DNA from: an uncultured Gammaproteobacteria bacterium
GTDB taxonomy: Bacteria > Patescibacteriota > Microgenomatia > UBA10105 > UBA927
Length of the DNA: 64,000 nucleotides
Direction of reading: 5' to 3'
Assembly (NCBI GenBank): GCA_964609895.1
Contig: CAZSTG010000001.1
Location: 59,202-123,201, forward strand
Within the stretch, counting starts at the first letter, position 1. Each line of letters begins with the position of its first letter. This document shows, in pieces, positions 30,701 through 50,607 of this stretch. A program made the translations under genes and the position numbers. The notes beneath the pieces are model-generated. The model was not told where the DNA came from, did no database searches, and saw nothing but the letters and a program-made list of their open reading frames with translations.

Positions 30701-30720
30701 TTTATATATAATGTATCGTT

Positions 30721-31700: not shown

Positions 31701-31719
31701 ATAAATAAGGAATAAACAT

Positions 31720-32835: not shown

Positions 32836-32871
32836 ACGTATGAGCGGATCAATTGTTACGAGTGAAGGAAT

Positions 32872-34350: not shown

Positions 34351-34377
34351 CTAGGTCTGCCCCACAAATGTGCTTTT

Positions 34378-35682: not shown

Positions 35683-35730
35683 TTCGGATTTTTAAATTTT
35701 TACAATTTCTATTCATAGAAATTCTTTAGA

Positions 35731-35759
35731 TTCACCCAAAGTTAGTAATGGGTTATAAT
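35731..35759 (+). promoter_or_regulatory. Candidate promoter TTCACC-17-TATAAT for the first methyltransferase gene (the -10 lies inside the annotated ORF start; the true start may be ATG 35772)
   Basis: ttcacc 35731-35736; tataat 35754-35759; in-frame ATG 35772 (MNKNFQSTKPIVIDLF). Confidence 0.4.
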
Positions 35760-36851
35760 GTAATTCCGATAATGAATAAAAATTTTCAATCCACTAAACC
35801 TATCGTTATTGACCTCTTTTCTGGTTGTGGAGGATTATCATATGGATTTTCTCAAGCGGGGTATGATGTTAGATTAGGAATAGATAATGATGAAACTGCT
35901 TTAAAAACTTTTGAATTAAACCATCCACATAGCAAAGGTGTAAATATTGATTTATCAGATAAATTTGCGATTAGTAAGATTAAAAAAATATTAGGTAATT
36001 CTAAGGTAGACGTTATTATCGGTGGTCCACCCTGTCAAGGATTTTCTTTAACAGGTACAAGAAAATTTGATGATGATCGAAATAAATTATATTTGTCTGT
36101 TATAAAGGCTGTAAAAGAATTAAAACCAAAAGCTTTTATGATAGAAAATGTAACTGGGATGGCCACCTTATATAAAGGAAAGGTAAAAGAAGAAATTATA
36201 AAGAGATTTAATAAATTAGGTTATAACGTCAATAGTCAAGTTTTATGTGCGGCTGACTATGGAGTACCTCAGATACGAAAAAGATTAATATTTATTGGAT
36301 TAAGAAAAAAATTAGGTGAATACGATTTCCCAATACCAACAAATAATCCAACAAATTATATATCTACCGCAGATGCCATAAGCGATTTACCTTCTCGAGA
36401 AAATAATATTGGTATTGAAGCAGATCAATATTTAAATAAACCAAAAACTGAATATCAAATTTTAATGAGAAAAAATTCAATTAAACTTTATAATCATGTT
36501 GCGACAATTCATTCTAAAAAGGTTATAGACGTGATTAAACTGGTACCAGAAGGGAAAAATTATAAAAGTTTACCAGAAGGCGTCGGCTCTCATAGAAAAT
36601 TTCATGAAGCTTGGACACGTTATCATAGTAAAAAACCTTCAAGGACTATCGACACAGGCCATCGTAATCATTTTCACTATAAGTATAATAGAGTTCCTAC
36701 AGTTCGCGAGAACGCCAGATTGCAATCCTTTCCAGATGTGTTTATTTTTCTTGGAAGTAAAACTCAGCAGAATAAGCATGTTGGCAATGCCGTTCCACCA
36801 CTACTAGGATATTGCGTTGCTAAAAAACTTTTACCTTATCTAAAAAAGTAG
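35748..36851 (+). CDS. DNA (cytosine-5)-methyltransferase (Dcm family), M1
   Basis: Motif I VIDLFSGCGGLSYGF; motif IV GGPPCQGFS; motif VI ENV; motif VIII QIRKRLIFIG; motif X GNAVPPLL. Confidence 0.92.
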   Translation: MGYNVIPIMNKNFQSTKPIVIDLFSGCGGLSYGFSQAGYDVRLGIDNDETALKTFELNHPHSKGVNIDLSDKFAISKIKKILGNSKVDVIIGGPPCQGFSLTGTRKFDDDRNKLYLSVIKAVKELKPKAFMIENVTGMATLYKGKVKEEIIKRFNKLGYNVNSQVLCAADYGVPQIRKRLIFIGLRKKLGEYDFPIPTNNPTNYISTADAISDLPSRENNIGIEADQYLNKPKTEYQILMRKNSIKLYNHVATIHSKKVIDVIKLVPEGKNYKSLPEGVGSHRKFHEAWTRYHSKKPSRTIDTGHRNHFHYKYNRVPTVRENARLQSFPDVFIFLGSKTQQNKHVGNAVPPLLGYCVAKKLLPYLKK

Positions 36852-36880
36852 CTAAAAATTTTAATTGCATCACGTTCAAT

Positions 36881-38110
36881 ATGAGGAAACTTAATGTTAT
36901 AGATTTGTTTGCCGGATGTGGAGGTTTAACTGATGGTTTTGAACAATCAGGTTTTTTTAAAACTCTAGCTTGTGTTGAATGGGATAAATCTTGTTGTGCA
37001 ACATTAGCTAAAAGATTAGCAAATAAATGGAATTATAAAAATGGTTCTGAAGTTGTTATCAGGTATGACATACAAAAAACTGCAGATTTGCTAAAAGGAT
37101 TTAATGATCCAAAATACGGATTTAATCTTGGGTTAAATAAACTTATTGAAAATAAAGTCGATTTATTGATTGGTGGTCCTCCATGTCAGGCGTATTCAGT
37201 TGCTGGTAGAATTAGAGACAAACACGGAATGCAACTAGATTATCGTAATTATCTTTTTGAAAGTTATATTAAAGTATTAGATAAATTTAGGCCAGAAATA
37301 TTTATTTTTGAAAATGTTTTAGGACTACTGAGTGCAAAGCCAGGTGGTGTTTCTATCATTAATAGAATAAAAAAAGCTTTTTCACAAATCGGTTATGAAA
37401 TTGTCGATGACATAAGGGGAAATGCAGTTTTTGACGTTGCGGATTATGGAGTTCCTCAAATAAGAAAACGTGTTATATTACTTGGTTTAAATAAAAATGT
37501 GTATAAAGAAAATAGGCAAAAAATTTTAATTGATTTTTATCAAAATATATTACCCTCATTTAAAGAACAACATAGGAAAACAGTTAAAGATGCAATTTTT
37601 GACCTTCCAAAATTTCAAATAAATAAATTAGAAATTGATTCAAACAACAAAGTGCAACCACATTTTTCTGAATCCATGTCTATATTAAATCATTATCCAA
37701 GATATCATAGTAAAAGAGATATTCAAATATTTTATGAATTAGCTTTGGATCAAAGTAAGGGGAATAAAAAATTTCATTCAGTTAAGGATATCAAAAAATT
37801 ATATACAGAAAAAACCGGTAAAATTTCTAATGTACATAAATATTTTGTTTTAAAATGGAATGAGCCTAGTAATACAATAGTTGCGCATCTATATAAAGAT
37901 GGGTTAAGACATATACATCCAGATTATAAGCAAGCGAGATCGATTTCCGTGCGTGAAGCGGCACGACTACAGTCGTTCGATGACGATTTTGAATTTTTAG
38001 GATCAATGGGTGATCAATATAAAATGATTGGAAATGCAGTTCCTCCGCTCTTTGCTAAAAAATTAGCTTGTGCCGTGCACAAGTTTAAAGTTAAATATAA
38101 TGGAGTATAA
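36881..38110 (+). CDS. DNA (cytosine-5)-methyltransferase (Dcm family), M2
   Basis: VIDLFAGCGGLTDGF; GGPPCQAYSVAGR; FENV; QIRKRVILLG; GNAVPPLF. The second adjacent m5C MTase has a distinct target-recognition domain insert. Confidence 0.92.
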   Translation: MRKLNVIDLFAGCGGLTDGFEQSGFFKTLACVEWDKSCCATLAKRLANKWNYKNGSEVVIRYDIQKTADLLKGFNDPKYGFNLGLNKLIENKVDLLIGGPPCQAYSVAGRIRDKHGMQLDYRNYLFESYIKVLDKFRPEIFIFENVLGLLSAKPGGVSIINRIKKAFSQIGYEIVDDIRGNAVFDVADYGVPQIRKRVILLGLNKNVYKENRQKILIDFYQNILPSFKEQHRKTVKDAIFDLPKFQINKLEIDSNNKVQPHFSESMSILNHYPRYHSKRDIQIFYELALDQSKGNKKFHSVKDIKKLYTEKTGKISNVHKYFVLKWNEPSNTIVAHLYKDGLRHIHPDYKQARSISVREAARLQSFDDDFEFLGSMGDQYKMIGNAVPPLFAKKLACAVHKFKVKYNGV

Positions 38111-38118
38111 TAAGATAA

Positions 38119-39117
38119 ATGAATGAACAGATATTATATATTCATAAACTGAACGCCCAAGAATTGGGTTTTAGACACGGTTCTTCTCATAAGGCTGGAA
38201 GATATATATATGTATCAAAAAAGTATTTAAATTTTTTTCCTCAATTAAGTGAATCGATTAAAAACGATCATATTCTTATTGATATTATTCCACCCGATTC
38301 TGACAAATTAATTTTGACTAATTATGTTTATCATAACGATAAAATAGTAGATTCAAAATCAAATGGTAGAAATGAATTTAGAATTTATTTGAATGAAGGA
38401 AATGATTTAGAAGGAAATTATTATCAGCCAAATGATATTGTTGTTATTCAGTCAGTAAAAATTGATGATAGTGCAACGTATAAAATATATAAATTTGACC
38501 AAATTCAACATGGTGTTGTATATCGACAACTTGACGAGTTATTGCGTAGATATGATAGTGCAGGAGCTTCTCATGCAATGATTCCGTTTGATGAACTTAA
38601 ATTTTTATCTATTCCTCAATATCCTACCGTAGATTTACAAAGTAAAGTTTTACCAAATGATGTAAAAGAAACAATTTTTAGTGCCCCAGTAGGTGTTTCA
38701 CTTCCATCTGAAGGGGAAGTGATTCGAAAAATTCGAAGCGCTAATTTTCGCGACTTAGTTCTCATGTTTTATGATTATAAATGTGCCGTCACTGGTAGAA
38801 GTAAAATAATTGAATATGGAACATTAACAAATCTTGAAGCGGCACATATTTATGCTTTTTCTAAAAGTGGAGGAGATAATCCATCAAACGGAATACCTTT
38901 GATTAAGGATATCCATTGGGCTTTTGATAATGGATTTTTTACTTTGACACCAGAATTTAAAATAAAAGTACATGATAATGCAATGAAAATTTCTTATTTA
39001 GCTGAATATAACAATAGGATTATAAATTTACCTGAAGATTCAAGAGCTAGACCTAATATGTCATCAATTGAGTGGCATAATAAGAATGTATTTGGTCAAT
39101 TTGTTAGGAAACAGTAA
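38119..39117 (+). CDS. Putative restriction endonuclease: N-terminal DNA-recognition domain fused to a C-terminal HNH nuclease domain
   Basis: C-terminal region CAVTGRSKI...LEAAHIYAFSKSGGDNPSNGIPLIKDIHWAFDNGFF matches the HNH (ββα-Me) signature (Cys/His-His...Asn...His). Immediately downstream of, and co-oriented with, the two MTases. Confidence 0.7.
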   Translation: MNEQILYIHKLNAQELGFRHGSSHKAGRYIYVSKKYLNFFPQLSESIKNDHILIDIIPPDSDKLILTNYVYHNDKIVDSKSNGRNEFRIYLNEGNDLEGNYYQPNDIVVIQSVKIDDSATYKIYKFDQIQHGVVYRQLDELLRRYDSAGASHAMIPFDELKFLSIPQYPTVDLQSKVLPNDVKETIFSAPVGVSLPSEGEVIRKIRSANFRDLVLMFYDYKCAVTGRSKIIEYGTLTNLEAAHIYAFSKSGGDNPSNGIPLIKDIHWAFDNGFFTLTPEFKIKVHDNAMKISYLAEYNNRIINLPEDSRARPNMSSIEWHNKNVFGQFVRKQ

Positions 39118-39276
39118 TTTTTTGCAGAGGTTAGTTTTATGAAGTTTGTTCCAAAATAACCTTAAGATTTGATCTTCGTTTCGATTTGTTATATACCAAC
39201 GGTAATCGATTTTGCTCCTTAAGAAGTTGGCGAGGATAACTTTCTCCCCAATAATTTGGGTTTCAGTTTATTTCAG

Positions 39277-39297
39277 CCCTCCTCGAGAGGGTATTTT
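39277..39297 (+). terminator. Intrinsic-terminator-like hairpin (CCCTC-ctcga-GAGGG) + TATTTT downstream of the endonuclease gene
   Basis: ccctcctcgagagggtatttt at 39277-39297. Confidence 0.5.
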
Positions 39298-39356
39298 AAA
39301 AATGCTTTCTCGGGGGAGGCAGTATTTAGACTTCCCAAATTTATTATAGAGAGGAG

Positions 39357-39542
39357 GTGAAAGGTATGGCATACTTTGTTATCTATACGGATTATAAAGG
39401 AGAATACCGTTGGAGGTTAAAAGCCAATAACGGTGAAATAGTTGCAGATAGTGAAGGTTATCAAACCAAACAATCGGCAATAAATTCGGCAAATTGGGTA
39501 AAAACCAATGCGCCTAATGCATCCATACAGGATCAAGTCTAA
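39357..39542 (+). CDS. DUF1508/YegP-family small protein
   Basis: MAYFVIYTDYKGEYRWRLKANNGEIVADSEGYQTKQSAINSANWVKTNA. Matches the YegP/UPF0339 repeat pattern (KGEYRFRLKA.NGEII..SEGY..K......I). Strong RBS gagaggaggtg upstream. Confidence 0.7.
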   Translation: MKGMAYFVIYTDYKGEYRWRLKANNGEIVADSEGYQTKQSAINSANWVKTNAPNASIQDQV

Positions 39543-39550
39543 CACTTGAT

Positions 39551-40075
39551 TCACGCCTCGTCAGCTTTTTGAGGAGCTATTTTAATATATACTCTAACTT
39601 TTCCTCGTTTTAGAATCAGCTTTTTTCTGAGCGCTTCGAGAAGATAGGGAATGCTCAGATATTGTGCGAGTTGTTTTATGAGAAGTTTTTGTACTTCCAT
39701 TGGTAACGCAAACACATTTGGTGCTTCCATAAACCTAGCGGCATTTGTCAGATGTTGGAGGATAGGACAGGAGGACATCACACAGAGTGATTTTTCTTTT
39801 TGTTTTTCAACAACGGTGTTGAATAGTAATTTTCCTAGTCCTTTTCCCTGAAATCTTAGGAGTGTGACAAGCGGCCCGATTTTTACCCAGTTTTTTGTTT
39901 CAGCTATGCAGCACACCCCTGCAAATTCTTTGTCCACAAAGATACAGTATGGATTTGGATATCGTTTCCAGTTTTTTCGATCGACGAATGCGAGGTCTGG
40001 CGCGGTTTTGATGGAGGAAATAAGCTCGGTAATTTCTTGTTCCGTGAGCGTGTGTTTTTCGATTGTGACTTGCAT
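39551..40075 (-). CDS. GNAT-family N-acetyltransferase
   Basis: ...LRFQGKGLGKLLFNTVVEKQ (acetyl-CoA-binding Q/RxxGxG/A motif). Confidence 0.75.
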   Translation of the reverse strand: MQVTIEKHTLTEQEITELISSIKTAPDLAFVDRKNWKRYPNPYCIFVDKEFAGVCCIAETKNWVKIGPLVTLLRFQGKGLGKLLFNTVVEKQKEKSLCVMSSCPILQHLTNAARFMEAPNVFALPMEVQKLLIKQLAQYLSIPYLLEALRKKLILKRGKVRVYIKIAPQKADEA

Positions 40076-40151
40076 TTATTTGATTATACTATGAGGAAAG
40101 AAGATTTTAGGCTAACTAGCACTATGATGACATAAGGAAATCGTTATAATG

Positions 40152-40739
40152 TCATCTCATGGGTGGATCAGACAGACGCGTGCTTGACTCATGTCTCGGA
40201 TGTAAATAACCTCTTTCGATCGCATTACTAACTGTCTTTATATTACCCCTCCATTTTTCTTCGGGAATTTTAGAAAAACCTCCAGTAAGCCATTTCCCAT
40301 CAACTATTAAGGAATGATCTTGCAAAAATCCAACGTTAATTTCAGACCAAGTTTCTTCATCTGTCCCACGCCATTGAGAAAAATTTTTATTCCATTTTAG
40401 TGTAATAGTGAAATATTTTTTATCAGTTGGATCTGTTTCTTTGTACGCGTAATTTTTCGCGAAAGAAGAATCTTCTCCATAGTAATCTGAAGGCGTCATT
40501 GGCCATTTTTCCATACCAGAGATAAGTTTCAGTAATTCATTAGTCAATTCATCAATTTGACTGGATTCAAAGCATTCTCGAAGTTGGGCAGTTTTAGCGG
40601 CTTCACGTCGTTCTCTGTTATTCTGTTGAATTAAATCCGTTGATTTTTGTTGACTGAGCAGTGTTTGGTCACGTCGGAGCTTTGCGTTTGCCTCTTGTGT
40701 TTGGGTGATAATTTGAGTTTTTAATCTTTCAAATGCCAT
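40152..40739 (-). CDS. Hypothetical protein (N-terminal Gln-rich coiled coil, C-terminal Trp-rich globular region), AT-rich
   Basis: 195 aa ORF. No recognisable motif. Codon usage and GC are similar to the island. Confidence 0.45.
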   Translation of the reverse strand: MAFERLKTQIITQTQEANAKLRRDQTLLSQQKSTDLIQQNNRERREAAKTAQLRECFESSQIDELTNELLKLISGMEKWPMTPSDYYGEDSSFAKNYAYKETDPTDKKYFTITLKWNKNFSQWRGTDEETWSEINVGFLQDHSLIVDGKWLTGGFSKIPEEKWRGNIKTVSNAIERGYLHPRHESSTRLSDPPMR

Positions 40740-40815
40740 ATAAGTATTGTTCTAACGCGATATTATCATTTTTTATCTTAAAGTCAAGAAAAAGGTAGTA
40801 CCTTAAACCTCTTCC

Positions 40816-40844
40816 TTGTAATTTGACCTCATTTAGTGTAAAAT
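40816..40844 (+). promoter_or_regulatory. Sigma70-like promoter TTGTAA-17-TAAAAT upstream of rpsO
   Basis: ttgtaa 40816-40821; taaaat 40839-40844. Same -35/-10 flavour as the rmuC promoter. Confidence 0.5.
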
Positions 40845-40893: not shown

Positions 40894-41298
40894 ATGGCAA
40901 CAAAAGCAAAAAAAGTTACAAAAAAAGAAGAAAAAGTTGAAAAGAAAGCCGTGAAAACAGCTTCAAAAGTAGAAAAGAAAACAGTGAAGAAAGCTGTAAA
41001 AGCAGTCAAATCCGCACCTGTTGAAGAAATTCCGGCGCCAAGTGAAGAAAAAGCACAAATTATCGCTGAATATCAGGTAAAAGCAGGCGATACAGGAAGT
41101 CCGGAAGTGCAGATTGCGCTTCTCACCGCCCGTATTGAAAAGCTTGCATCCCACCTGAAAACAAACAACAAAGATAATCATTCCCGTCGGGGACTGTTGG
41201 GAATCATCTCAAAACGCCGAAGACTCTTGAACTACCTTGAAACCAAGGAAAAAGCACGGTTTAAAGAAATACAAAAAAAGTTAGGTTTAACAAAATAA
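40894..41298 (+). CDS. rpsO: 30S ribosomal protein S15 with a ~45-aa Lys/Ala/Val-rich N-terminal extension
   Basis: Core: ...[51 protein letters not shown]... (canonical S15). N-terminal extension [39 protein letters not shown]... with no internal Met before the core. Confidence 0.88.
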
Positions 41299-41451: not shown

Positions 41452-43635
41452 ATGAATATAGTAAAAAAATCCGTTGAAGTCGGTGGACGAACGTTATCAC
41501 TCGAAATTGGACGCTATGCCGAACAGGCAGGCGCAGCCGTGGTTGCCCAGTATGGCGATACCATGGTTTTGGCCGCAGTGACGGCATCCAGCAAAGAAAC
41601 AACACTCGATTATTTTCCACTTTCCGTTGAATACGTTGAACGCCTGTATGCAGGCGGACGCATCAAGGGATCACGTTGGGTAAAACGCGAAGGCAGACCG
41701 ACAGACGATGCAGTACTTGCGGGTCGTGTCATTGACCGTTCTATCAGACCGCTTTTTCCAAAAACATACAAACATGATGTACAGGTGATCATTACCACAC
41801 TTTCTGTTGATGGAGAAAATGATCCCGATGTTTTGGCACTTGTTGCCGCATCGGCTGCCATTGCTGTTTCCGAAGTTCCATGGAATGGACCGGTCGGAGG
41901 CGTTCGTGTCGGATGCATTAAAGAGGAAGGACAGGAAAAAGGAACCATCCTGATTAATCCGACAGCACCACAACAGGAAATGAGTGAATTTGATTTCATC
42001 GTTTCCTCAAACGCAGATCGCGTCATGATGCTTGAAGGAGGATTCTGCGAAACACCGGAAGATGTGGTGTTTGAGGCAGTCGAAGCAGCGAAAGTTGCAA
42101 ACAAAGCAATCATTGACTGTATCAATGACCTCGTCAAAGAAGTGGGAAAAACAAAAGCGGTCATTGCTGATCCGGTTTCAACGGAAGAGCTGGAAGCAAA
42201 ATTGAAAAAAGATTACAAAAAAGAACTCGATGAACAGTTCAAGAAAACAACGCAAAAAGAAGGTGGAGATACGGGAATGGGCGAACTTGCCAAGGCAATT
42301 GCCGAAAAGTATGAACAGGCATACACGATCCCGCAAATTATGGCGGCAATTGATCATATTTTCAAAAATCGTATTCGTGAAGATGTGCTTGTTCACAGCA
42401 AACGTGTTGACGGACGAAAGATTGATGAGGTAAGACCCATTACTATGGATTTGAGCCTACTTCCACGAGCACATGGAAGTGCCATGTTCAAACGAGGGCA
42501 AACGCAGGTCTTGACTGTCGCAACCCTTGGCTCTCCTGACATGGCACAGCTCATTGAGAGCCCGGCCGGAGAAGAATCACGAAGATATATTCATCATTAC
42601 ACCATGCCTCCATATTCTGTTGGAGAAACAGGCAGAGTGGGTACACCATCCAGACGCGAAATCGGTCATGGAGCACTTGCTGAACGCGCGCTCATTGCCG
42701 TGATTCCTGATGAAACAGAATTTCCATATACCATCAGATTGGTATCTGAAATTATGTCCTCTAACGGATCCACATCCATGGCATCCACCTGCGGATCAAC
42801 ACTCGCTCTTATGGATGCAGGCGTTCCCATCAAAGAACCAGTTGCTGGAATTTCCGTTGGTCTCATGACCAATCCAAAAGACAAAAAAGAATTCGTGCTT
42901 TTAACTGACATCGTCGGTGTCGAAGATTTCGGCGGAGACATGGATTTCAAAGTGGCAGGTACGAAAAACGGTATCACCGCCATTCAACTCGATATGAAAG
43001 TTGATGGTATCAGCGATGAAATCGTTAAAGGTGCACTGGAACGGGCAAAAGTAGCTCGCGCCATGATCTTAGAGAAAATGCACGCATTAATTGCTGTTTC
43101 AAGACCAAATCTTTCCCAGTATGCACCAAAAGTGCAGATGATGAAGATTCCTGTTGATAGCATCGGTACAGTGATCGGACCGGGAGGAAAAATGATTCGT
43201 CAAATCCAGACTATCACAGGAGCAATCCTCGATGTGAAAGATGACGGATCAGTATTTATTACCAGTACGAAAGATGAGGCAGTGAAAAAAGCAGCTGCTT
43301 GGATCGAAGGACTGACCCATGAAGTGAAAGCGGGCGAAGAATACGAAGGAGAAGTCAAACGTTTGATGGCATTTGGTGCATTTGTGGAAATTCTTCCGGG
43401 CAAAGAAGGATTAGTCCATGTATCACAGATGTCCACAGACTTTGTGCAGGATCCGTCAACGGTTGTACAAATCGGACAAAAAGTAAAAGTACGGGTGATC
43501 GAAATTGACGATCAGGGACGGGTGAATCTTTCCATGCTCTTTGGAGACGATGCTGCAAAAGCACCGCCACGGGAACGGCGGGAAGGCGGAGACCGCCCGC
43601 GTCGTCCTTTTAACCGCGGACCGCGAAGATATTAA
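41452..43635 (+). CDS. pnp: Polyribonucleotide nucleotidyltransferase (PNPase)
   Basis: Two RNase PH-like domains (...TMVLAAVTAS...; ...FKRGQTQVLTVATLGS...GHGALAERAL), then KH and S1 (...FGAFVEILPGKEGLVHVSQM...). Arg/Gly-rich C-terminal tail. Confidence 0.97.
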   Translation: MNIVKKSVEVGGRTLSLEIGRYAEQAGAAVVAQYGDTMVLAAVTASSKETTLDYFPLSVEYVERLYAGGRIKGSRWVKREGRPTDDAVLAGRVIDRSIRPLFPKTYKHDVQVIITTLSVDGENDPDVLALVAASAAIAVSEVPWNGPVGGVRVGCIKEEGQEKGTILINPTAPQQEMSEFDFIVSSNADRVMMLEGGFCETPEDVVFEAVEAAKVANKAIIDCINDLVKEVGKTKAVIADPVSTEELEAKLKKDYKKELDEQFKKTTQKEGGDTGMGELAKAIAEKYEQAYTIPQIMAAIDHIFKNRIREDVLVHSKRVDGRKIDEVRPITMDLSLLPRAHGSAMFKRGQTQVLTVATLGSPDMAQLIESPAGEESRRYIHHYTMPPYSVGETGRVGTPSRREIGHGALAERALIAVIPDETEFPYTIRLVSEIMSSNGSTSMASTCGSTLALMDAGVPIKEPVAGISVGLMTNPKDKKEFVLLTDIVGVEDFGGDMDFKVAGTKNGITAIQLDMKVDGISDEIVKGALERAKVARAMILEKMHALIAVSRPNLSQYAPKVQMMKIPVDSIGTVIGPGGKMIRQIQTITGAILDVKDDGSVFITSTKDEAVKKAAAWIEGLTHEVKAGEEYEGEVKRLMAFGAFVEILPGKEGLVHVSQMSTDFVQDPSTVVQIGQKVKVRVIEIDDQGRVNLSMLFGDDAAKAPPRERREGGDRPRRPFNRGPRRY

Positions 43636-43690: not shown

Positions 43691-44782
43691 ATGTCATCCC
43701 TGTCTGATAGAGTGAGTATTCTTCGAAGAACATTATCCGATGTACAAGTGCCGCCGGAGCTAGGACTCCGTATCACGGGATATTTTGAAGAAATCGAACG
43801 GCTCCAAAACGATATCGCAGCTCAAGTGCACATTGAACAGCTGCTCGACTATATTGATTGGATTGTGAATCTTCCATGGAACAAACGGTCGGTGGATGAG
43901 ATTGATATAGAAAAAGCAAAAGAAATGCTGAATAGAAATCATTACGGCATGCAGTCGGTGAAGGACAATATTATTGAGTATCTGTCTGTCCTCAAACTGC
44001 AGCAGGAGAAAGGCATTGAGGAGAAAGATCTGAAGGCCGGCGATGCGGGACTCGTGCATGGCATGCTGGCACGTCGCGCACCAATTTTGTGTCTTATCGG
44101 ACTGGTTGGAACAGGAAAAACGACACTTGCCAAATCCGTGGCTGAGGCGATGGGAAGGAAATTCATCCGTATTCCGTTTGGAGGATTGTCAGATTCCCTT
44201 GATCTCCGCGGTCAGTCTCGCGTGAGGCCGGATGCGGAAATCGGACTGATTCTGAAAGGTCTTCGATATGCGGGAACGAAAAATCCCGTGATGCTCCTTG
44301 ATGAGGTCGATCGTGTTGCAGAACATGCCAGAGGTGACATCATGGGAGTATTGGTAGAACTGTTGGATCCCGAGCAGAACAAGGCATTCACCGATCATTA
44401 TCTTGATGTCCCGTTTGATCTGTCGGAAGTATTATTTATCGCAACCGCAAACAATACAACAAATATATCAACGGCAGTTCTTGATCGTTTGGAAGTGATT
44501 CAGATGCCGTCGTATAGTGATGAGGAAAAAATTACGATTGCAAAGGATTATGTTATGCCGGCTCTCCTGAAAGCATCAGGACTTACCAAAGAGAATCTGA
44601 CGATTGACGATTCGGTGTGGCCGAAGCTCGTCCGGCCGCTTGGATATGACGCGGGAATCCGTTCCATAGAACGGACGATGAACGGCGTCTGCCGAAAAGT
44701 AGCACGAGCAATAGTAGAAGGAAAAGGAAAAACGTTTCATATAACGGAGACTAACATCAAAGAGTATATAGAAACGTATTAA
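43691..44782 (+). CDS. Stand-alone Lon-type AAA+ ATPase module (no N-terminal LON domain, no C-terminal S16 protease domain)
   Basis: YIDWIVNLPWNKRSVDEIDIEKAKEMLNRNHYGMQSVKDNIIEYLSV closely parallels Lon (YIDWMVQVPWN...HYGLERVKDRILEYLAV). Walker A GLVGTGKTTLAKS; Walker B VMLLDEVDR; ELLDPEQNKAFTDHYLDVPFDLSEVLFIATAN; LDRLEVIQMPSYSDEEK. The ORF ends where the protease domain would begin. Confidence 0.8.
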   Translation: MSSLSDRVSILRRTLSDVQVPPELGLRITGYFEEIERLQNDIAAQVHIEQLLDYIDWIVNLPWNKRSVDEIDIEKAKEMLNRNHYGMQSVKDNIIEYLSVLKLQQEKGIEEKDLKAGDAGLVHGMLARRAPILCLIGLVGTGKTTLAKSVAEAMGRKFIRIPFGGLSDSLDLRGQSRVRPDAEIGLILKGLRYAGTKNPVMLLDEVDRVAEHARGDIMGVLVELLDPEQNKAFTDHYLDVPFDLSEVLFIATANNTTNISTAVLDRLEVIQMPSYSDEEKITIAKDYVMPALLKASGLTKENLTIDDSVWPKLVRPLGYDAGIRSIERTMNGVCRKVARAIVEGKGKTFHITETNIKEYIETY

Positions 44783-44787: not shown

Positions 44788-46617
44788 GTGAAAGTATACA
44801 TGCAAAATAAGTTTAAGCACCATGGCAGTAGGCCATCGTGGTTCAGGAATCCCCAAGCGCAACCACAGCAAAAAAATGAGCAGGGGAAACGTACAAAACA
44901 ATTCGTGGGAGTCGGCAAAAGCGATTTTCGTGGCTCTCCTTCAGGCAAGGAATCATTGCGGTTTATCCCCATCGGCGGCAGCGGCAACGTGACGAAAAAC
45001 ATGTTCGCGTATGAACTGCGGTATGACGGACGGATAACAGATATCTTGCTCGTCGACTGCGGCATCGGATTTCCTGATGCGGACATGTACGGCGTGGATG
45101 TCGTTATTCCGGATGTCCGGTATTTGGAGGACAAAAAACAATACATCAGAGGGCTCGTGTTTACCCACGGACATGATGATCATATCGGGGCAATCCCGTA
45201 CATCTATCCGAAGTTAGGGAACATTCCCATGTGGGGAACACCGCTCACCGCGGCGTTTGCAAATTTGAAACTGAAGGAAACAAAAATTGCGTCCCGTGTG
45301 AAGTCTGTGGATTTTTCGGAAGTCCTGCATATCGGACCGTTTACGGTTTCGTTTGTCCGCATGACGCATTCCGTGCCGGACACATCCAACCTCATTATCG
45401 AGACGCCCGTCGGTATTTTTTACCACGGCAGTGATTTCAAGTTTGATTTCGATCCCTTGGATGGGAAAAAATCAGAACTGGACAAGATTAATGCAGCGGG
45501 AGACCGCGGAGTTTTGTGTCTCATGACGGATTCACTCGGGAGTGAACGTGCAGGGTTTACTCCATCAGAACAAAAGATTCGTGAGAGCATCGAAAAAGAA
45601 CTTGCGATGTGTCAGGGAAAGTTTTTGTTTACGACCCAATCATCAAACATTTCCCGTATCCAACTTGCGATAGACGTCGCAATTACAGCCGGTAGAAAGA
45701 TTGCATTTTTTGGGCGAAGCATCGATAAAAATGTAGAGGAAGCATTTAATCTCGGGTATATGAAATTCCCGAGGGATATGGTGGTACGCGACAGGGATCT
45801 CAAGAAGATGCCGGCCAACAAGATGTTTTTGATTGTGGCAGGAGCTCAAGGACAACCTGAATCAGCGCTCACCAGAATGGCAAATGACAATCATACATTT
45901 GTTTCCATTGCGGACGGGGATACCGTCATGTTCAGTGCAGATCCGATTCCAGGAAATGAAAACAGTGTCGGCACGATCATCGATCAGTTGTATCGGGATG
46001 GCGCACGCGTGTCATACACCAACATCATGGAAGACTTGCATGTGTCAGGACACGGATCGCAGGGGGATCACATGCTGATGCTCACGGCACTTGGCCCGTC
46101 GTTTGTATTGCCAATTGGAGGAACGTATCGGCATATCATGAATTACCGGACAATTGCCATGGAATGCGGCTGGAAAAAACACCAGATTCTGATGCCGGAT
46201 GAGGGGGATATTCTGGAATTTAGGAAAGGCCAAACACCAAAAGTTGCCCAACATATTACCCTTGAAAACGTCATGGTGGACGGACTCGGAATCGGCGATG
46301 TCGGCAGCATTGTACTGCGTGACCGTCAGACCATCGCAAACGAGGGAATTGTGGTTGTCGTCGTACCGGTGGAAAAATCAACAGGAAAAGTGACGAGTGC
46401 GCCCGATATTATCTCGCGGGGATTTGTGTATATCAAGGAATCCGGAGATTTGCTCAATCGCGCACGAAAAATCGTGAGCGATTCACTCCGCGTGAAACAC
46501 GGCAGATCCATGGATTGGCACTATATGCGGGAACTCATCGAAGACAATCTGCAGAAATTCCTCAAAAAAGAAACAGGCAGACAGCCCCTCATCGTTCCTG
46601 TCATTCTTGAGGTATAA
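44788..46617 (+). CDS. rnj: Ribonuclease J (metallo-beta-lactamase/beta-CASP RNase) with an ~80-aa basic N-terminal extension
   Basis: VFTHGHDDHIGAIPY (HxHxDH)...GSDFKFD...MTDSLG...VSGHGSQGD...beta-CASP and C-terminal domain. Confidence 0.9.
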   Translation: MKVYMQNKFKHHGSRPSWFRNPQAQPQQKNEQGKRTKQFVGVGKSDFRGSPSGKESLRFIPIGGSGNVTKNMFAYELRYDGRITDILLVDCGIGFPDADMYGVDVVIPDVRYLEDKKQYIRGLVFTHGHDDHIGAIPYIYPKLGNIPMWGTPLTAAFANLKLKETKIASRVKSVDFSEVLHIGPFTVSFVRMTHSVPDTSNLIIETPVGIFYHGSDFKFDFDPLDGKKSELDKINAAGDRGVLCLMTDSLGSERAGFTPSEQKIRESIEKELAMCQGKFLFTTQSSNISRIQLAIDVAITAGRKIAFFGRSIDKNVEEAFNLGYMKFPRDMVVRDRDLKKMPANKMFLIVAGAQGQPESALTRMANDNHTFVSIADGDTVMFSADPIPGNENSVGTIIDQLYRDGARVSYTNIMEDLHVSGHGSQGDHMLMLTALGPSFVLPIGGTYRHIMNYRTIAMECGWKKHQILMPDEGDILEFRKGQTPKVAQHITLENVMVDGLGIGDVGSIVLRDRQTIANEGIVVVVVPVEKSTGKVTSAPDIISRGFVYIKESGDLLNRARKIVSDSLRVKHGRSMDWHYMRELIEDNLQKFLKKETGRQPLIVPVILEV

Positions 46618-46624
46618 TTCCATC

Positions 46625-47386
46625 ATGAAAGACAAAGCAATCATTTTTGATATTGATGGAACCGCAGTCGATTCTCCCGAGCAAAAACTGCCGACGCCAT
46701 CTCTTGTTGCCGCGATGGAACAGCTGAAAGATCAATACTATTTATGTGCGGCAACGGGTCGCGTGTGGTCATACGGGAAAGCGGTGCTTCAGGCAATGCA
46801 TCTGACTGATCCATGCGTCATCTCTGCGGGAACACAAATCTGTAATCCTCAGACTGGCGAAATCCTTTGGCAAAAAACTGTTCCTGAAGAGGCATTAACC
46901 AAAGTGATTGAAGTGTTGAATAATTATCCCGAATACAAAGTGCTGTTTAATGACGGTACGGAGGATGATTATTTCAACGGCGGGGTGTATCCGAAAGATT
47001 TTCATACAACAGAACCGGTGTATTTTTTCGAAGTTGTGTTTGTTCCGGATAAAATTGCGGAAGAAATCCGTGAGAAGCTTTTGACAATAGAAGGAATTAC
47101 CTGTGTCATGGTGATTGCGCAGAAATCTGAAACTCGGGATCTGCATGTGATTAACCGCGATGCGACGAAGGAACATGCGATCGGAGAATTGTTGAAAATA
47201 TTGCAGGTGAGAAAGGAACAGACCATCGGTATCGGTGACGGGCACAATGATATTCATCTGTTCAATGCCGTTGGGAAAAAGATCGCGATGGGCAATGCGA
47301 CACAAATTCTGAAAGATGCGGCAGACGAAGTGATTGGATCAGTAAAAGAAGATGGAATGGCGAAGTATCTGCAGACGCTGCAGTAA
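46625..47386 (+). CDS. HAD-superfamily hydrolase, Cof-type (subfamily IIB) sugar-phosphatase-like
   Basis: MKDKAIIFDIDGTAV (motif I DxDGT)...IGIGDGHNDIHLFNAVGKKIAMGNA (motif IV). Confidence 0.8.
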   Translation: MKDKAIIFDIDGTAVDSPEQKLPTPSLVAAMEQLKDQYYLCAATGRVWSYGKAVLQAMHLTDPCVISAGTQICNPQTGEILWQKTVPEEALTKVIEVLNNYPEYKVLFNDGTEDDYFNGGVYPKDFHTTEPVYFFEVVFVPDKIAEEIREKLLTIEGITCVMVIAQKSETRDLHVINRDATKEHAIGELLKILQVRKEQTIGIGDGHNDIHLFNAVGKKIAMGNATQILKDAADEVIGSVKEDGMAKYLQTLQ

Positions 47387-47389
47387 CGC

Positions 47390-49222
47390 TTACACTTTTG
47401 CGGAAAGGCCGCGGTCGACTCTGTTTCGTTCAACAGACGTCAGGAATTTTTTTCGAAGCCTAAGGTTGAGCGGTGTGATTTCCAAGAGTTCATCTTCCTC
47501 GACGAAATCCAGACATTGTTCCAGCGAAAACTCCGTCGGCGGATCCAGTTGAATTGCGATGTCAGCATTTGCTGAATGGATATTGGTGAGTTTTTTGATT
47601 TTGCAGACATTGATTTCTATGTCATCCTGTCGGGCGTTGAGTCCGATGATCATGCCCGCGTATACGGGAACTCCCGGACCTATGAATGCTTTGCCGCGTT
47701 CTTGTACTGTCTGCAGTGCATATCCTGTGGATTTGCCGGATTCAAATGCAATGAGTACTCCATTTCGAAGTTTCGGCACGTGTGCACCAAGCGGGAAGTA
47801 TCCGATAAATCTGGTTGAGAAAATGCCATTTCCTCGTGTTTTTGTCATGATGTCGCCTCTAAATCCGAGGAGATTGCGGCTGGAAACTTTGTACACCATT
47901 TTGGTGACGCCGCGGTCTGAGGTGAATGTATCCAGCATTTCCGCTTTTCGTTTTCCAAGTTCTTCTGTGATAACACCGACGTATGCACTATCGATTTCAA
48001 TGGTTATTTCTTCGTATGGTTCATGAGTTTTTCCATCAATGTCCTTAAGGATTACTTCCGGTTTTCCCACCTGCATTTCGTATCCTTCGCGTCGTAGGTT
48101 CTCAAGTAAAATTGCCAAATGCAATTCTCCGCGGCCGGCGACGATAAATCCGTTACCCTGCGGATTGTCCGTGATGTTGATACCGATATTTGTCTGTTTC
48201 TCTTTGAGAAGTCGTGCATGAATTTGACGTGCAGTGCAGAATTTTCCCTCACGTCCTGCAAATGGGGAAGTGTTAGCTGCGAGGGAAATTTTCAGTGTCG
48301 GGTCTTCGAGTTTGATAGTTGGATATCCTGTCGGATCGGATGGATCAGTGATGGTCTGTCCGATGGCAACATCAGGAATTCCTGTCACAGCGATGATGTC
48401 GCCTGTTTTTCCTTCAGTTGTTTCCACGCGCTTGAGTCCCACACTGGTAAATACCTGTTCAATTCTGTATTGGCCGACTTTTTCATTTTCCTGCATGAGG
48501 AAAATAGACTGTCCTGCCTTGATTGTTCCCTGTGTCAGTTTGCCGATGGCGTATGTACCTTTGTAGTCATCGAAATCGAGGGTAGACACAAGCATTTTTG
48601 TCGGCATATCCGCGTTTGCTTTCGGCGCAGGAACGTACTGCAGGATAGATTCAAATACGGGAGTCAGATCTGCATCTGCTGTCATATCTTCCGGATATGG
48701 ATCCCACGCTTTGCCTTCGCGGCCGATGGCATAAATGACGGGATACATCAGATCATCTTCGTGGTTTGCAAGGTGAAGAAACAGTTCTTCAATCTCATGC
48801 GCTACTTCTTCGACTCTGGCATCTTTGCGGTCGATTTTGTTGATGACGACAATGAGTTTCAGGTGGAGTTCGAGCGCCTTTTTTAGTACAAACTGTGTCT
48901 GCGGCAGCGGGCCTTCCGCTGCATCGACGACCAAGACTGCACCGTCTGCCATATTGATGGTGCGTTCGACTTCTCCTGAAAAGTCCGCATGTCCGGGAGT
49001 GTCGATGATATTGATCTTGGTGCCTTTGTACATGACGCTTGTGTTTTTAGCAAGGATTGTGATGCCTTTTTCCCGTTCTAGGGTATTTGAATCGAGGATG
49101 GTTGTTTGATTCATTTCTGCTTCATTATCGCGGAAGGTGTGGGTCTGTTTGAGCATGCCATCGACAAGCGTGGTTTTCCCGTGGTCAACGTGGGCGATGA
49201 TGGCGACATTTCGAATATCCAT
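47390..49222 (-). CDS. typA: Translational GTPase TypA/BipA
   Basis: [26 protein letters not shown]...[16 protein letters not shown]...NKIDR. EF-G-like domains. Start reset to ATG 49220-49222. Confidence 0.93.
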
Positions 49223-49226
49223 AGAC

Positions 49227-49277
49227 AAAAAGAAAACCCCGCCCAAACGATGAATTGATATCCAAATCGTAGCGGGG
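49227..49277 (-). promoter_or_regulatory. Terminator-like hairpin (CCCCGC...GCGGGG with inner ACGAT/ATCGT) followed by a U-run on the typA sense strand, ending ~5 nt before the typA ATG. Candidate leader attenuator.
   Basis: Minus-strand sense: ccccgctacgatttggatatcaattcatcgtttgggcggggttttcttttt then gtctATG. Confidence 0.45.
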
Positions 49278-49368
49278 AGAACATATGAAGTATACCACAT
49301 TTTGCCGGTCTTTGCCCATGTAAAACAACCATACGATAAATGATATACTGGAGAGCGTCTGGAGAGTT

Positions 49369-50607
49369 ATGAATACAATCACGCAATCCTTTAAAAAACT
49401 GAAACACCTTCCGCAAAATGTCTGGGCGGTAGGTGTCACAAGTTTCCTCATGGATGTTTCCAGTGAGATGATCATAAATATCATTCCTTTGTTTCTTGCA
49501 AACGTAGCCGGAGTATCCACGGGTATTATCGGGTTTATCGAAGGTATGGGGGACACAACGGCAAGCCTGTTGAAGCTTGTTTCCGGTTGGCTGTCGGATA
49601 AACTGCGTGCCCGCAAATGGCTTGCAGTATTTGGATATGCACTGTCTGCGTTTTCCAAGCCGTTTTTTTATATCGCAAGTTCGTGGGGAGTGATTGCTGG
49701 AGTGAAATGGGCGGATCGTGTTGGAAAAGGCATTAGGACATCGCCGCGCGATGCGCTTGTTGCCGATTCCGTGACGAAGGAAACGCGCGGTATCGCGTTT
49801 GGTCTGCAGAAGGCACTTGATAGTGCGGGTGCTGTCCTTGGTTTTATCATAGCAACGCTCGTCGTATGGTTTACGCAGAAAAATGCGATGTATTTGTCGC
49901 GGCATACATTTCAGATTATCGTGCTCTTTAGCATCATCCCCGCCATTCTTTCCGTCATATCGCTTGCTGTCGGATCGAAGGATGTGCAGGTGAAGGACGA
50001 ACGGAAATTGCCGAACATCACGCTGAAGAAACTGGGAAAACCGTTTGCCGTCTATCTTTTCATTGTGAGCCTTTTTACACTCGGCAATTCATCAGATGCA
50101 TTTCTTGTCTTGCGTGCACAGAATCTTGGCGTGTCTGTCATCGGCATATTTCTCATGTTGGCGTTGTTTAAATTGGTTTATTCCATTACGGCAGTTCCGG
50201 CGGGAAACCTGTCAGACACCATTGGCAGAAGAAAAATAATCATTTGGGGATGGCTCATTTATGCGGTCTTATATCTCGGATTCGCATTTGCAGGCAAAGG
50301 GTGGCAGGTCGCGCTTCTCTACATTGTATATGGACTGTATTACGGACTGGCATTCGGGACGGCAAGTGCGTTTGTTGCTGATTTGGTGCCTCAAGAGCTG
50401 CGCGGCACCGCATACGGCACATATAACGCGGTGATCGGACTTTTAGCTCTTCCCGCATCCGCTATCGCGGGCGTGTTATGGCAGGGAATAGGGTTGTGGC
50501 ACGGGTTTGGACCGAGTGCGCCGTTTTTGTTCGGCGGGATACTGTCACTGACGGCCGTGCTTCTGATGGTGTTTGTCATGCCTGAAACGCGTGAAAAAAT
50601 TGCGTAA
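49369..50607 (+). CDS. MFS transporter
   Basis: 412 aa, 12 hydrophobic segments, MFS loop motif ...GWLSDKLRARK... Confidence 0.8.
   Translation: MNTITQSFKKLKHLPQNVWAVGVTSFLMDVSSEMIINIIPLFLANVAGVSTGIIGFIEGMGDTTASLLKLVSGWLSDKLRARKWLAVFGYALSAFSKPFFYIASSWGVIAGVKWADRVGKGIRTSPRDALVADSVTKETRGIAFGLQKALDSAGAVLGFIIATLVVWFTQKNAMYLSRHTFQIIVLFSIIPAILSVISLAVGSKDVQVKDERKLPNITLKKLGKPFAVYLFIVSLFTLGNSSDAFLVLRAQNLGVSVIGIFLMLALFKLVYSITAVPAGNLSDTIGRRKIIIWGWLIYAVLYLGFAFAGKGWQVALLYIVYGLYYGLAFGTASAFVADLVPQELRGTAYGTYNAVIGLLALPASAIAGVLWQGIGLWHGFGPSAPFLFGGILSLTAVLLMVFVMPETREKIA

What the first reader, a model, noticed from the sequence alone, without database searches (positions are those of the whole stretch)
43691..44782. 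Lon AAA+ module encoded as a stand-alone protein between pnp and rnj
The protein aligns along its whole length with the Lon A-type ATPase module (YIDW...PWN, Walker A/B, sensor regions). The ORF starts at the end of the Lon N-domain and stops exactly where the S16 protease domain would start. The downstream sequence is RNase J, with no protease remnant. The Walker A is the unusual GLVGTGKT. This could be a degradative-machine remnant repurposed as a chaperone/unfoldase, or it might partner with RNA-decay enzymes, given its location between PNPase and RNase J.
Basis: seen in the sequence. Interest (0 to 1): 0.65.

Follow-up and report, generated by a model that had tools for sequence, protein, structure and literature searches.

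The report
Protease-less Lon ATPase of CPR bacteria
This gene encodes only the ATP-burning motor of the Lon protease, with no cutting domain and without the motor's usual protein-gripping residues. It is a strongly conserved protein of ultra-small CPR bacteria that sits between two RNA-degrading enzymes, so it is a repurposed motor of unknown job, not a broken protease.

Summary
ORF 43691-44782 (+, 363 aa) matches only the AAA+ module of LonA (E. coli Lon residues 244-582). It lies 55 nt after pnp and 17 nt before rnj. No S16 protease or Lon N-domain sequence occurs anywhere in the 64-kb window, in any frame.

It is not a fragment. At least 120 distinct 336-392-aa homologs exist, dN/dS against the closest relative is 0.04, and all 38 protease-less sequences sampled form one clade apart from canonical LonA. 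Labelled members are Microgenomates/Patescibacteria (CPR).

Walker A/B, sensor 1, Arg finger and sensor 2 are conserved. The two pore-loop residues Lon uses to grip substrate are Arg179 and Ala213 here, and the equivalent positions vary across the clade.

The order rpsO-pnp-lonAAA-rnj holds in about 20 species-level genomes down to 49% identity. That order is part of a larger conserved block (nusA-infB-DHH-rpsO-pnp-lonAAA-rnj-ftsK). It is absent in Roizmanbacteria and Saccharibacteria-type relatives.

Best reading: an ATP-driven, non-proteolytic ring ATPase, co-expressed with PNPase and RNase J in Microgenomatia. A link to RNA decay is plausible but unproven. The family is uncharacterized, and in public annotation and a CPR gene census it is labelled or counted as "Lon protease".

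The parts
43691..44782 (+). lonAAA: complete ORF (363 aa) for a LonA-derived, protease-less AAA+ ATPase
   Evidence: a 100% identical protein is in public data (P0001)
43691..44011 (+). N-terminal helical region (residues 1-107). It corresponds to the last helices of the LonA N-region (Ec 244-344) and contains YIDW...PWN
   Evidence: helices H3-17, H22-38, H42-59, H73-83 and H88-107 in the AF2 model
44000..44080 (+). Clade-specific insert before strand beta1 and Walker A (residues ~104-130, QQEKGIEEKDLKAGDAGLVHGMLARRA). It is absent from canonical Lon, ranges from 0 to ~130 aa across the clade, and has low model confidence
   Evidence: pLDDT<50 at 111-130
44099..44125 (+). Walker A GLVGTGKTT (Lys143), invariant in the family; canonical Lon has GPPGVGKTS
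44207..44245 (+). Pore loop 1, RGQSRVRPDAEIG. Arg179-Pro180 replace Lon Tyr398-Ile399. The loop is nearly invariant in the close family; clade-wide only xS[RK]....[DE]AEPG is kept
44291..44311 (+). Walker B MLLDEVD (Asp204, Glu205)
44312..44338 (+). Pore loop 2 region RVAEHARGD. Ala213 sits at the position of MtaLonA Trp431 / E. coli Met432
44441..44455 (+). Sensor 1 motif ATANN
44486..44488 (+). Arg finger Arg266 (aligned with E. coli Lon Arg484), invariant
44570..44731 (+). Lon-type lid (alpha) subdomain, containing sensor 2 Arg324 (44660-44662)
40894..41298 (+). rpsO (ribosomal protein S15, with a Lys-rich 50-aa N-terminal extension); first gene of the co-directional run
   Evidence: promoter-like site at 40816-40844
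41452..43635 (+). pnp (PNPase, 727 aa); its stop is 55 nt before the lonAAA start
44800..46617 (+). rnj (RNase J, 605 aa from the ATG at 44800); starts 17 nt after the lonAAA stop

Best explanation
SHOWN. The gene encodes a LonA-derived AAA+ ATPase that has lost both the LON N-terminal substrate-binding domain and the S16 protease domain. It belongs to an old, monophyletic, strongly constrained clade whose labelled members are CPR/Patescibacteria bacteria. The window itself comes from a Gottesmanbacteria-like Microgenomates genome. Every residue needed to bind and hydrolyse ATP in a ring is conserved, including the trans-acting Arg finger. The aromatic 'paddles' of pore loops 1 and 2 are gone, and a variable insert precedes Walker A.

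INFERRED. The protein assembles into a Lon-like ring and uses ATP for a non-proteolytic job. Without aromatic pore loops or a degradation chamber, it most likely does not thread polypeptides processively. Instead it probably binds and remodels a specific partner through its lineage-specific but locally invariant pore loop (RGQSRVRPDAEIG here).

MOST LIKELY CONTEXT. In Microgenomatia it is co-transcribed with rpsO-pnp upstream and is often translationally coupled to rnj downstream. My committed guess is that it acts on the RNA-turnover machinery. It could remodel or regulate RNase J and/or PNPase, or their RNA-protein substrates, as the energy-dependent component of a minimal degradosome-like set.

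The identity and architecture part has a probability of about 0.95. An ATP-active oligomer has about 0.7. A specific role in RNA decay has about 0.3-0.35. The confidence figure below refers to the composite mechanism.
For: Identity and architecture: (Foldseek top hits are all LonA/LONP1 AAA+ modules, E~1e-19).

Real, constrained gene: at least 120 clusters of 336-392 aa at 69-100% identity. dN/dS is 0.038 against L007. It evolves about as slowly as PNPase in the same loci (LonAAA/PNP/RNJ identity 90/94/87% in L007, 68/74/71% in L009, 55/58/46% in L029).

Monophyly: all 38 protease-less sequences form one clade. All end at Ec ~582 and none has an S16 or Lon-N domain within +-10 kb.

ATPase motifs are invariant.

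Pore-loop change. The role of Tyr397 and Trp431 in MtaLonA is documented in PMC8503904.

Synteny: the S15-PNP-LonAAA-RNJ order holds in about 20 of 25 protease-less loci (Gottesman-, Woese-, Ames-, Levybacteria and unnamed Microgenomates) down to 49% identity, and in none of 55 canonical-Lon loci. lonAAA-to-rnj gaps of -7, -4, 1, 4, 7, 9, 15, 17 and 20 nt are common. No convincing + strand terminator lies inside the run.

CPR bacteria retain rnj (96.8%) and pnp (94.9%) as core RNases (PMC12641178).
Against: The link to RNA decay is gene order only.

1. The whole block (dnaJ)-nusA-infB-DHH-rpsO-pnp-lonAAA-rnj-ftsK-HTH is conserved in these genomes, so the adjacency may reflect general synteny of housekeeping genes. 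From my own knowledge, the order pnp...rnj...ftsK is also found in Bacillus and Mycobacterium.
2. In Roizmanbacteria, UBA1406, Saccharibacteria and UBA9296 the gene sits in unrelated contexts: SOD, a Na/H exchanger, or glyA-thyX-dcd-aminotransferase V.
3. Extra genes separate lonAAA from rnj (675-714 nt) in L013, L017 and L021, and from pnp (724-1401 nt) in L012, L022 and L028.
4. 399 of 505 CPR genomes still have a DEAD-box helicase, so there is no obvious vacant ATPase role.
5. The Arg at the Tyr position is specific to the close family; other members have H, Q, M, L, F, S, K or V there.
6. In canonical Lon the protease domain contributes much of the hexamer contact (own knowledge), so ring assembly of this module is not assured.
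7. The AF2 model is only moderate (pLDDT 72) and monomeric.
Confidence: 0.4

Rival explanations
1. It is a general, non-proteolytic protein chaperone or remodeller unrelated to RNA. In this reading it is a Lon that kept only its ATP-dependent holding or remodelling activity, serving proteostasis in a tiny genome, and its position between pnp and rnj is a historical accident of a conserved housekeeping block.
For: The whole nusA...ftsK block is conserved, not just the triad. The hrcA-grpE-dnaK-dnaJ-like genes lie co-directionally just upstream in the window and in L003/L007. Roizmanbacteria members sit next to SOD and, in L023, GroES/GroEL-like genes; the SOD is Pfam-confirmed, the GroES/GroEL call rests on ORF sequence only. 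Clade members outside Microgenomatia have no RNA-decay neighbours. A Lon relative with chaperone-like activity independent of ATP-powered unfolding is known (LonC; PMC3391209 and PMC13069640, listed).
Against: Both aromatic pore-loop residues are lost. The LON N-domain that canonical Lon uses for substrate recognition is also lost. Little known protein-substrate machinery therefore remains. The tiny or overlapping gaps to rnj in many genomes suggest co-translation.
Confidence: 0.3
2. It is a split Lon. The ATPase works with a protease subunit encoded elsewhere in the genome, either a stand-alone S16 peptidase or another peptidase, in the way ClpX works with ClpP or HslU with HslV.
For: All ATPase and ring-forming motifs are intact. 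The protein ends exactly at the AAA/protease junction in every clade member. Stand-alone AAA+ unfoldases with separate peptidases are a well-known arrangement (own knowledge).
Against: No S16 or Lon-N sequence occurs in the 64-kb window or within +-10 kb of any of the 25 protease-less loci. The pore loops lack the aromatic residues needed to feed a polypeptide into a protease. Whole genomes could not be scanned here, so a distant partner is not excluded.
Confidence: 0.12
3. It is a degraded remnant: a pseudogene or a recent truncation of a full-length lon, with no function of its own.
For: Only the domain architecture itself, and the sub-threshold score against the Lon equivalog model.
Against: dN/dS is 0.038. 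There are at least 120 distinct clusters of the same length. The clade is monophyletic and spans several candidate phyla, with identical end points. The catalytic motifs are invariant. There is no protease remnant downstream, and rnj starts 17 nt after a TAA stop.
Confidence: 0.01

Closest known systems
LonA (endopeptidase La; E. coli Lon, B. subtilis LonA 3m6a, M. taiwanensis LonA 4ypl)
   Same: The helical pre-AAA region with YIDW...PWN, the AAA+ alpha/beta domain and the Lon-type lid are all shared. Identity is 36-45% over the module. Walker A/B, sensor 1, Arg finger, sensor 2 and the DPEQN motif are present.
   Different: There is no LON N-terminal domain and no S16 Ser-Lys protease domain. 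Pore-loop-1 Tyr-Ile is replaced by Arg-Pro, and the pore-loop-2 Trp/Met by Ala. Walker A reads GLVGTGKT instead of GPPGVGKT. A 25-aa insert precedes beta1. The score is below the TIGR00763 cutoff.
LonC (Meiothermus taiwanensis Lon-like protease with no ATP-powered unfolding; PMC3391209)
   Same: It is a Lon-family member that has given up one half of the ATPase-protease machine.
   Different: It is the reciprocal case. LonC keeps the protease and has a degenerate, ATPase-inactive AAA-like module. This protein keeps an apparently active ATPase and has no protease.
Laboratory-made isolated Lon AAA+ module (E. coli Lon AAA+ domain crystal structure 6n2i)
   Same: The boundaries are almost the same: the query aligns to 6n2i residues 9-339 in two segments at E=8e-74. 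Foldseek TM-score normalised to the target is 0.69, the highest in the list.
   Different: 6n2i is an engineered truncation of a protease. This is a natural, selected gene with altered pore loops and an insert.
ClpX / HslU (stand-alone HCLR-clade AAA+ unfoldases)
   Same: They are stand-alone ring ATPases from the same AAA+ clade as Lon, encoded without a protease domain (own knowledge).
   Different: ClpX and HslU keep an aromatic-hydrophobic pore loop (GYVG) and are encoded next to, or work with, a dedicated peptidase. Neither feature is found here.
BrxL (Lon-like AAA+ protein of BREX phage defence)
   Same: It is a Lon-related ATPase with a non-proteolytic, nucleic-acid-related role (own knowledge).
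   Different: No BrxL model matches in PADLOC, which returns only weak generic AAA hits to TRIP13, IetA and DolB. The housekeeping context does not resemble a defence island.

Membership tests
LonA / endopeptidase La (TIGR00763, NF008053) | Whole-protein score at or above the curated equivalog cutoff | tested here: not met
   328.1 bits against a cutoff of 608 (TIGR00763); 255 against 891 (NF008053)
LonA / endopeptidase La (TIGR00763, NF008053) | C-terminal S16 protease domain (Lon_C) with the Ser-Lys dyad | tested here: not met
   No Lon_C in Pfam. The protein ends at Ec ~582. tblastn with Ec Lon 586-784 finds nothing in the window.
LonA / endopeptidase La (TIGR00763, NF008053) | LON N-terminal substrate-binding domain (PF02190) | tested here: not met
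   No Pfam hit. Only the last ~65 residues of the Ec N-region (244-307) align.
LonA / endopeptidase La (TIGR00763, NF008053) | AAA+ module with a Lon-type lid, closest to LonA among AAA+ proteins | tested here: met
   PF00004 plus PF22667. The best NCBIfam, PDB and Foldseek matches are all LonA.
LonA / endopeptidase La (TIGR00763, NF008053) | Pore-loop-1 Tyr and pore-loop-2 aromatic/hydrophobic residue used for substrate translocation | tested here: not met
   Arg179 and Ala213 occupy these positions, and the positions vary across the clade. The requirement in MtaLonA is documented in PMC8503904.
Active ring-forming AAA+ ATPase (generic) | Walker A Lys, Walker B Asp-Glu, sensor 1 Asn, trans Arg finger and sensor 2 Arg | tested here: met
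   K143, D204/E205, N254/N255, R266 and R324 are invariant in 36 family members
Active ring-forming AAA+ ATPase (generic) | ATP hydrolysis and hexamer formation | not testable with these tools
   Needs purified protein. Only a monomer model was obtained.
Stand-alone unfoldase with a separate peptidase (ClpX/HslU type) | Aromatic-hydrophobic pore loop | tested here: not met
Stand-alone unfoldase with a separate peptidase (ClpX/HslU type) | Partner peptidase encoded in the genome | tested here: inconclusive
   None in the window or within +-10 kb of 25 loci.
BrxL / defence-associated Lon-like ATPases | Match to the PADLOC BrxL model and a defence-island context | tested here: not met
   No BrxL hit; only generic AAA matches with E>=1e-7. 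The context is housekeeping.
RNA degradosome-type assembly (ATPase plus PNPase plus endo/exo-RNase) | Physical association of the ATPase with the RNases or with RNA | not testable with these tools
   Only conserved gene order is available

The most novel reading that the evidence does not exclude
The ring ATPase has switched client from proteins to the RNA-decay system. It would dock on RNase J and/or PNPase, or engage RNA or RNP through its re-modelled, non-aromatic pore. That would form an ATP-dependent RNA-degrading machine built on the logic of an AAA+ protease, with a motor ring feeding a degradative enzyme, as a CPR-specific substitute for a helicase-based degradosome.
Probability: 0.12. 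Interest if true: 0.85.

Novelty: new variant of a known kind. Interest (0 to 1): 0.55.

Why it matters
Lon is regarded as the archetype of a fused ATPase-protease. This is a large, ancient clade that discarded the protease, the substrate-binding N-domain and the aromatic pore loops, yet kept a fully equipped ATPase under strong selection. That shows the Lon motor can be reused for something other than proteolysis.

There is also a practical consequence. JGI and some NCBI records label these proteins 'ATP-dependent Lon protease' (K01338), including NCBI's 'ATP-dependent protease La' for P0063. A published CPR protein-family census has a single Lon family in which only 56% of members show the full architecture, and it scores that family as 'equally distributed' between CPR and other bacteria (PMC6744442 Supplementary Data 1). 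If the CPR entries in that family are largely the short form, which I could not check, reconstructions of CPR proteostasis over-count ATP-dependent proteases.

If the link to PNPase and RNase J is functional, the protein would give a handle on how RNA turnover is energised in the smallest free-standing bacterial genomes.

Tried and rejected
1. Frameshifted or hidden protease or N-domain. tblastn with E. coli Lon 1-240/1-310 and 586-784 against the whole window and against 80 loci found nothing next to any short form. Rejected.

2. Recent fragment or pseudogene. Rejected on dN/dS, family size and monophyly.

3. Informative domain fusions. The longer clade members (up to 669 aa) were scanned with Pfam. 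Their extra regions have no recognisable domain, including no LON_substr_bdg and no RNA-binding domain.

4. Defence-system relative (BrxL-like). The PADLOC scan was negative.

5. 'Replaces missing DEAD-box helicases'. Published counts show deaD or rhlE in 399 of 505 CPR genomes. Weak support at best.

6. 'Arg-rich pore loop means RNA binding'. The Arg at the Tyr position is confined to the close family and is not a clade feature. I do not use it as evidence.

7. Canonical Lon in CPR. The only Patescibacteria-labelled canonical Lon among 80 loci (L077) nests inside Chloroflexota Lons, so it may reflect transfer or mis-binning. This is uninformative about co-occurrence.

8. Literature. Six full-text searches found no description of a protease-less LonA family.

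9. Whole-genome check for a separate S16 peptidase or a second, full-length lon.

10. Promoter/terminator scan. Counts were no higher than in shuffled sequence, so the scan only shows the absence of an obvious internal + strand terminator.
Full report
OBSERVATION. The ORF exists exactly as described: 43691..44782, + strand, 363 aa, ATG start, TAA stop. Pfam finds only an AAA domain (residues 133-271) and the Lon-specific lid (294-347). The LonA equivalog model TIGR00763 matches at E=1.3e-97, but only over profile positions 258-571 of 795. The score of 328 bits is therefore below the 608-bit cutoff. The best solved-structure relatives are all LonA or LONP1, led by B. subtilis 3m6a at E=1.9e-78. 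E. coli Lon, fetched from NC_000913.3, aligns residues 244-579 to 43691-44770 at 36% identity. The protein therefore begins in the last helices of the Lon N-region, which contain YIDW...PWN, and stops at the AAA/protease junction.

Upstream lie rpsO (40894-41298) and pnp (41452-43635), and the pnp stop is 55 nt before the start. Downstream lies RNase J, whose ATG at 44800 is 17 nt after the stop. Neither the E. coli Lon protease domain nor its N-domain finds anything else in the 64-kb window in any frame.

IT IS A FAMILY, NOT A FRAGMENT. A search of 5.8 billion proteins returned a 100%-identical protein and at least 120 distinct 90%-identity clusters. All are 336-392 aa, 69-100% identical, and carry AAA plus Lon_lid only. 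Where a source names them, the labels are 'AAA family ATPase [Microgenomates group / Patescibacteria group bacterium]' or 'ATP-dependent Lon protease'.

An exhaustive HMMER scan of 1.84 billion 50%-identity representatives collapsed this close family into one representative (P0121, 361 aa, 67% identity). It also revealed about 15 further short or protease-less representatives (351-669 aa) before the canonical ~800-aa Lons at 40-45% identity. In an alignment, all the short forms end at E. coli Lon position ~582. All have a Walker A of the form G[LVI]xGxGKT. All replace Lon's TY[IV]G[AS]MPG with xxxx[DE]AEPG.

A neighbour-joining tree of 105 AAA modules places all 38 protease-less sequences in one clade, separate from every canonical LonA. 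dN/dS between the window gene and its closest genomic relative (L007, Candidatus Gottesmanbacteria, 90% aa identity) is 0.038, with dS about 2.2. Across loci the protein diverges about as slowly as PNPase and more slowly than RNase J. The 'pseudogene' and 'recent fragment' readings are excluded.

ANATOMY. Walker A (GLVGTGKTT, K143), Walker B (D204/E205), sensor 1 (ATANN), the trans Arg finger (R266) and sensor 2 (R324) are invariant in 36 aligned family members. That pattern argues for an active ATPase whose catalytic site is completed by a neighbouring subunit, which implies an oligomer.

Two things are not Lon-like. First, pore loop 1 reads RGQSRVRPDAEIG where E. coli Lon has RGHRRTYIGSMPG, so Tyr398-Ile399 become Arg179-Pro180. 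In pore loop 2, Ala213 occupies the position of MtaLonA Trp431. In MtaLonA, Tyr397 and Trp431 contact the substrate and are both required for degradation (PMC8503904). The loop is almost invariant within the close family. Across the clade, however, the two 'grip' positions read VR, VH, MH, IQ, AM, VL, AL, AF, IH, LH, GV, FS, LK, TS or YS. Second, a ~25-aa insert (residues ~104-130) precedes strand beta1, and its length ranges from 0 to ~130 aa across the clade.

An AlphaFold2 model (mean pLDDT 72) has the Lon AAA+ fold. Its top 50 Foldseek PDB hits are all LonA or LONP1, at E~1e-19. Confidence is low exactly at the insert, the P-loop and pore loop 1. Longer clade members carry no recognisable extra domain.

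CONTEXT. A scan of one genome per GTDB species returned 80 loci. Twenty-five of them carry the protease-less form, labelled Gottesman-, Woese-, Ames-, Levy- and Roizmanbacteria, Microgenomates, Saccharibacteria and Patescibacteria. Several further MAGs are labelled 'uncultured Gammaproteobacteria' but have typical Microgenomates loci.

None of the 25 has an S16 or Lon-N domain within +-10 kb. About 20 keep the order S15-PNPase-LonAAA-RNase J, down to 49% identity. None of the 55 canonical-Lon loci has PNPase or RNase J adjacent. The lonAAA-to-rnj gap is frequently tiny or overlapping: -7, -4, 1, 4, 7, 9, 15 and 20 nt, and 17 nt in the window. I found no convincing + strand terminator inside the run, and there is a promoter-like site upstream of rpsO.

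Three facts limit what this shows.
- The entire block (dnaJ)-nusA-infB-DHH-rpsO-pnp-lonAAA-rnj-ftsK-HTH is conserved in these genomes, not just the triad.
- Other genes intervene in some genomes. For example, a 217-aa ORF lies between lonAAA and rnj in L013, and three small reverse-strand ORFs lie between pnp and lonAAA in L012.
- In Roizmanbacteria, UBA1406 and the Saccharibacteria-type subclade the gene sits in unrelated contexts. These include SOD, a Na/H exchanger, and SHMT-ThyX-dCTP deaminase-class V aminotransferase next to a TraG-like ATPase.

HOW IT MOST LIKELY WORKS. Shown: a LonA-derived ATPase with intact nucleotide-handling and inter-subunit residues, with no protease, no N-domain and no aromatic pore loops, under strong purifying selection, embedded in a co-directional run with pnp and rnj in most Microgenomatia.

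Inferred: it forms a Lon-like ring and spends ATP on a non-proteolytic task. Processive polypeptide threading is unlikely, and specific partner binding or remodelling through the re-modelled pore is more likely. Given the tight coupling to rnj, I take the most likely clients to be the RNA-turnover enzymes or their RNP substrates. CPR bacteria retain rnj (96.8%) and pnp (94.9%) as core RNases (PMC12641178). My confidence in this composite is about 0.4, and only about 0.3-0.35 for the RNA link itself.

The idea that it substitutes for absent DEAD-box helicases is poorly supported, because 399 of 505 CPR genomes have deaD or rhlE.

The main rivals are as follows.
- A general non-proteolytic chaperone whose position is inherited synteny (0.3).
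- A split Lon that works with a distant peptidase (0.12). This is not excluded because whole genomes could not be scanned.
- A dead remnant (0.01).

COMPARISON WITH WHAT IS KNOWN. It works like, and descends from, the LonA AAA+ module, but it fails the membership tests for LonA itself. It scores below cutoff and lacks the S16 domain, the LON N-domain and the pore-loop Tyr.

It is the mirror image of LonC, which keeps the protease and has an inactive ATPase (PMC3391209). It resembles the engineered E. coli Lon AAA+ fragment 6n2i in its boundaries. It differs from ClpX and HslU in lacking an aromatic pore loop and an identifiable peptidase partner. It has no PADLOC match to BrxL.

No NCBIfam or Pfam model is specific for it, and six literature searches found no description of it. 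A CPR protein-family census has a single 'ATP-dependent Lon protease' family, fam11706. It holds 3,172 proteins, only 56% of them with the full architecture, and it is present in 911 CPR and 983 non-CPR bacterial genomes and scored 'equally distributed' (PMC6744442). Any CPR short forms in that family have therefore been counted as Lon protease. I could not check how many of its CPR members are the short form.

VERDICT. It is a new variant of a known kind, namely an uncharacterised, widespread, protease-less LonA derivative of CPR bacteria. Interest is 0.55. An AAA+ specialist would find it moderately surprising, it is easily testable, and it is relevant to annotation. The mechanism remains open.

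Noticed in passing
window 35700-40750: A low-GC island (30-34% against ~45% for the window) lies between the DHH gene and rpsO. It holds two C-5 cytosine DNA methyltransferases (35748-36851, 36881-38110), an HNH_2 endonuclease (38119-39117), a DUF1508 protein (39357-39542), a GNAT acetyltransferase (39551-40075, -) and an unknown ORF (40152-40739, -). It looks like a Type II restriction-modification island, and it interrupts the otherwise conserved nusA-infB-DHH-rpsO block.
   Followed up: partly
window 40894-41058; 43500-43635; 44800-44979: All three RNA-related neighbours carry basic, low-complexity extensions. S15 has a ~50-aa Lys-rich N-terminal extension (its Pfam domain starts at residue 53). 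PNPase ends in an Arg-rich tail (PRERREGGDRPRRPFNRGPRRY). RNase J has a ~55-aa basic N-terminal extension before the IPIGG start of the catalytic domain. The RNase J extension is absent in L012 and L013. Whether these tails are RNA-binding or handles for the ATPase is unknown.
   Followed up: no
L077 (DATLAB010000012.1, 'Patescibacteria group bacterium SMAG_U14260'), 10001-10999 and flanks: This is the only Patescibacteria-labelled locus with a canonical full-length Lon (829-aa open frame, GPPGTGKTS, HRRTYIGALPGR, S16 and N-domain present). In the tree it nests among Chloroflexota Lons, which suggests horizontal transfer or mis-binning.
   Followed up: partly
L008, L010, L014, L016, L019, L024, L025, L027, L028: MAGs titled 'uncultured Gammaproteobacteria bacterium' (SRP..._co1 and binchicken assemblies) carry the Microgenomates-type S15-PNPase-LonAAA-RNase J locus, with 53-75% identity to the window proteins. 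The taxonomic labels in these records look wrong.
   Followed up: no
window 27464-35343: A co-directional run lies immediately upstream of the island. It holds an HrcA-like ORF, a GrpE-like ORF, DnaK, DnaJ, NusA, InfB and a DHH-family protein. The same order recurs in L003 and L007. The HrcA and GrpE assignments rest on sequence resemblance only.
   Followed up: partly
window 46607-49300: A HAD-family (Hydrolase_3) gene (46607-47386, +) and bipA/typA on the opposite strand (47390-49300, -) separate rnj from ftsK, followed by an MFS transporter (49369-50607, +). In L003 and several other relatives rnj is followed directly by ftsK. The HAD gene was found in no other protease-less locus, not even L007 at 90% identity.
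   Followed up: partly
L012 8563-9910: Three small reverse-strand ORFs (127, 98 and 208 aa) are inserted between pnp and lonAAA in a Woesebacteria genome. They may be a toxin-antitoxin-like pair plus one more gene, but I did not scan them against any library.
   Followed up: no
P0006-P0120 annotations; PMC6744442 Supplementary Data 1, fam11706: JGI and at least one NCBI record name the protease-less proteins 'ATP-dependent Lon protease' or 'protease La'. A published CPR census has one Lon family with only 56% full architecture and calls it equally distributed between CPR and other bacteria. This is a likely systematic over-annotation of Lon protease in CPR genomes.
   Followed up: partly
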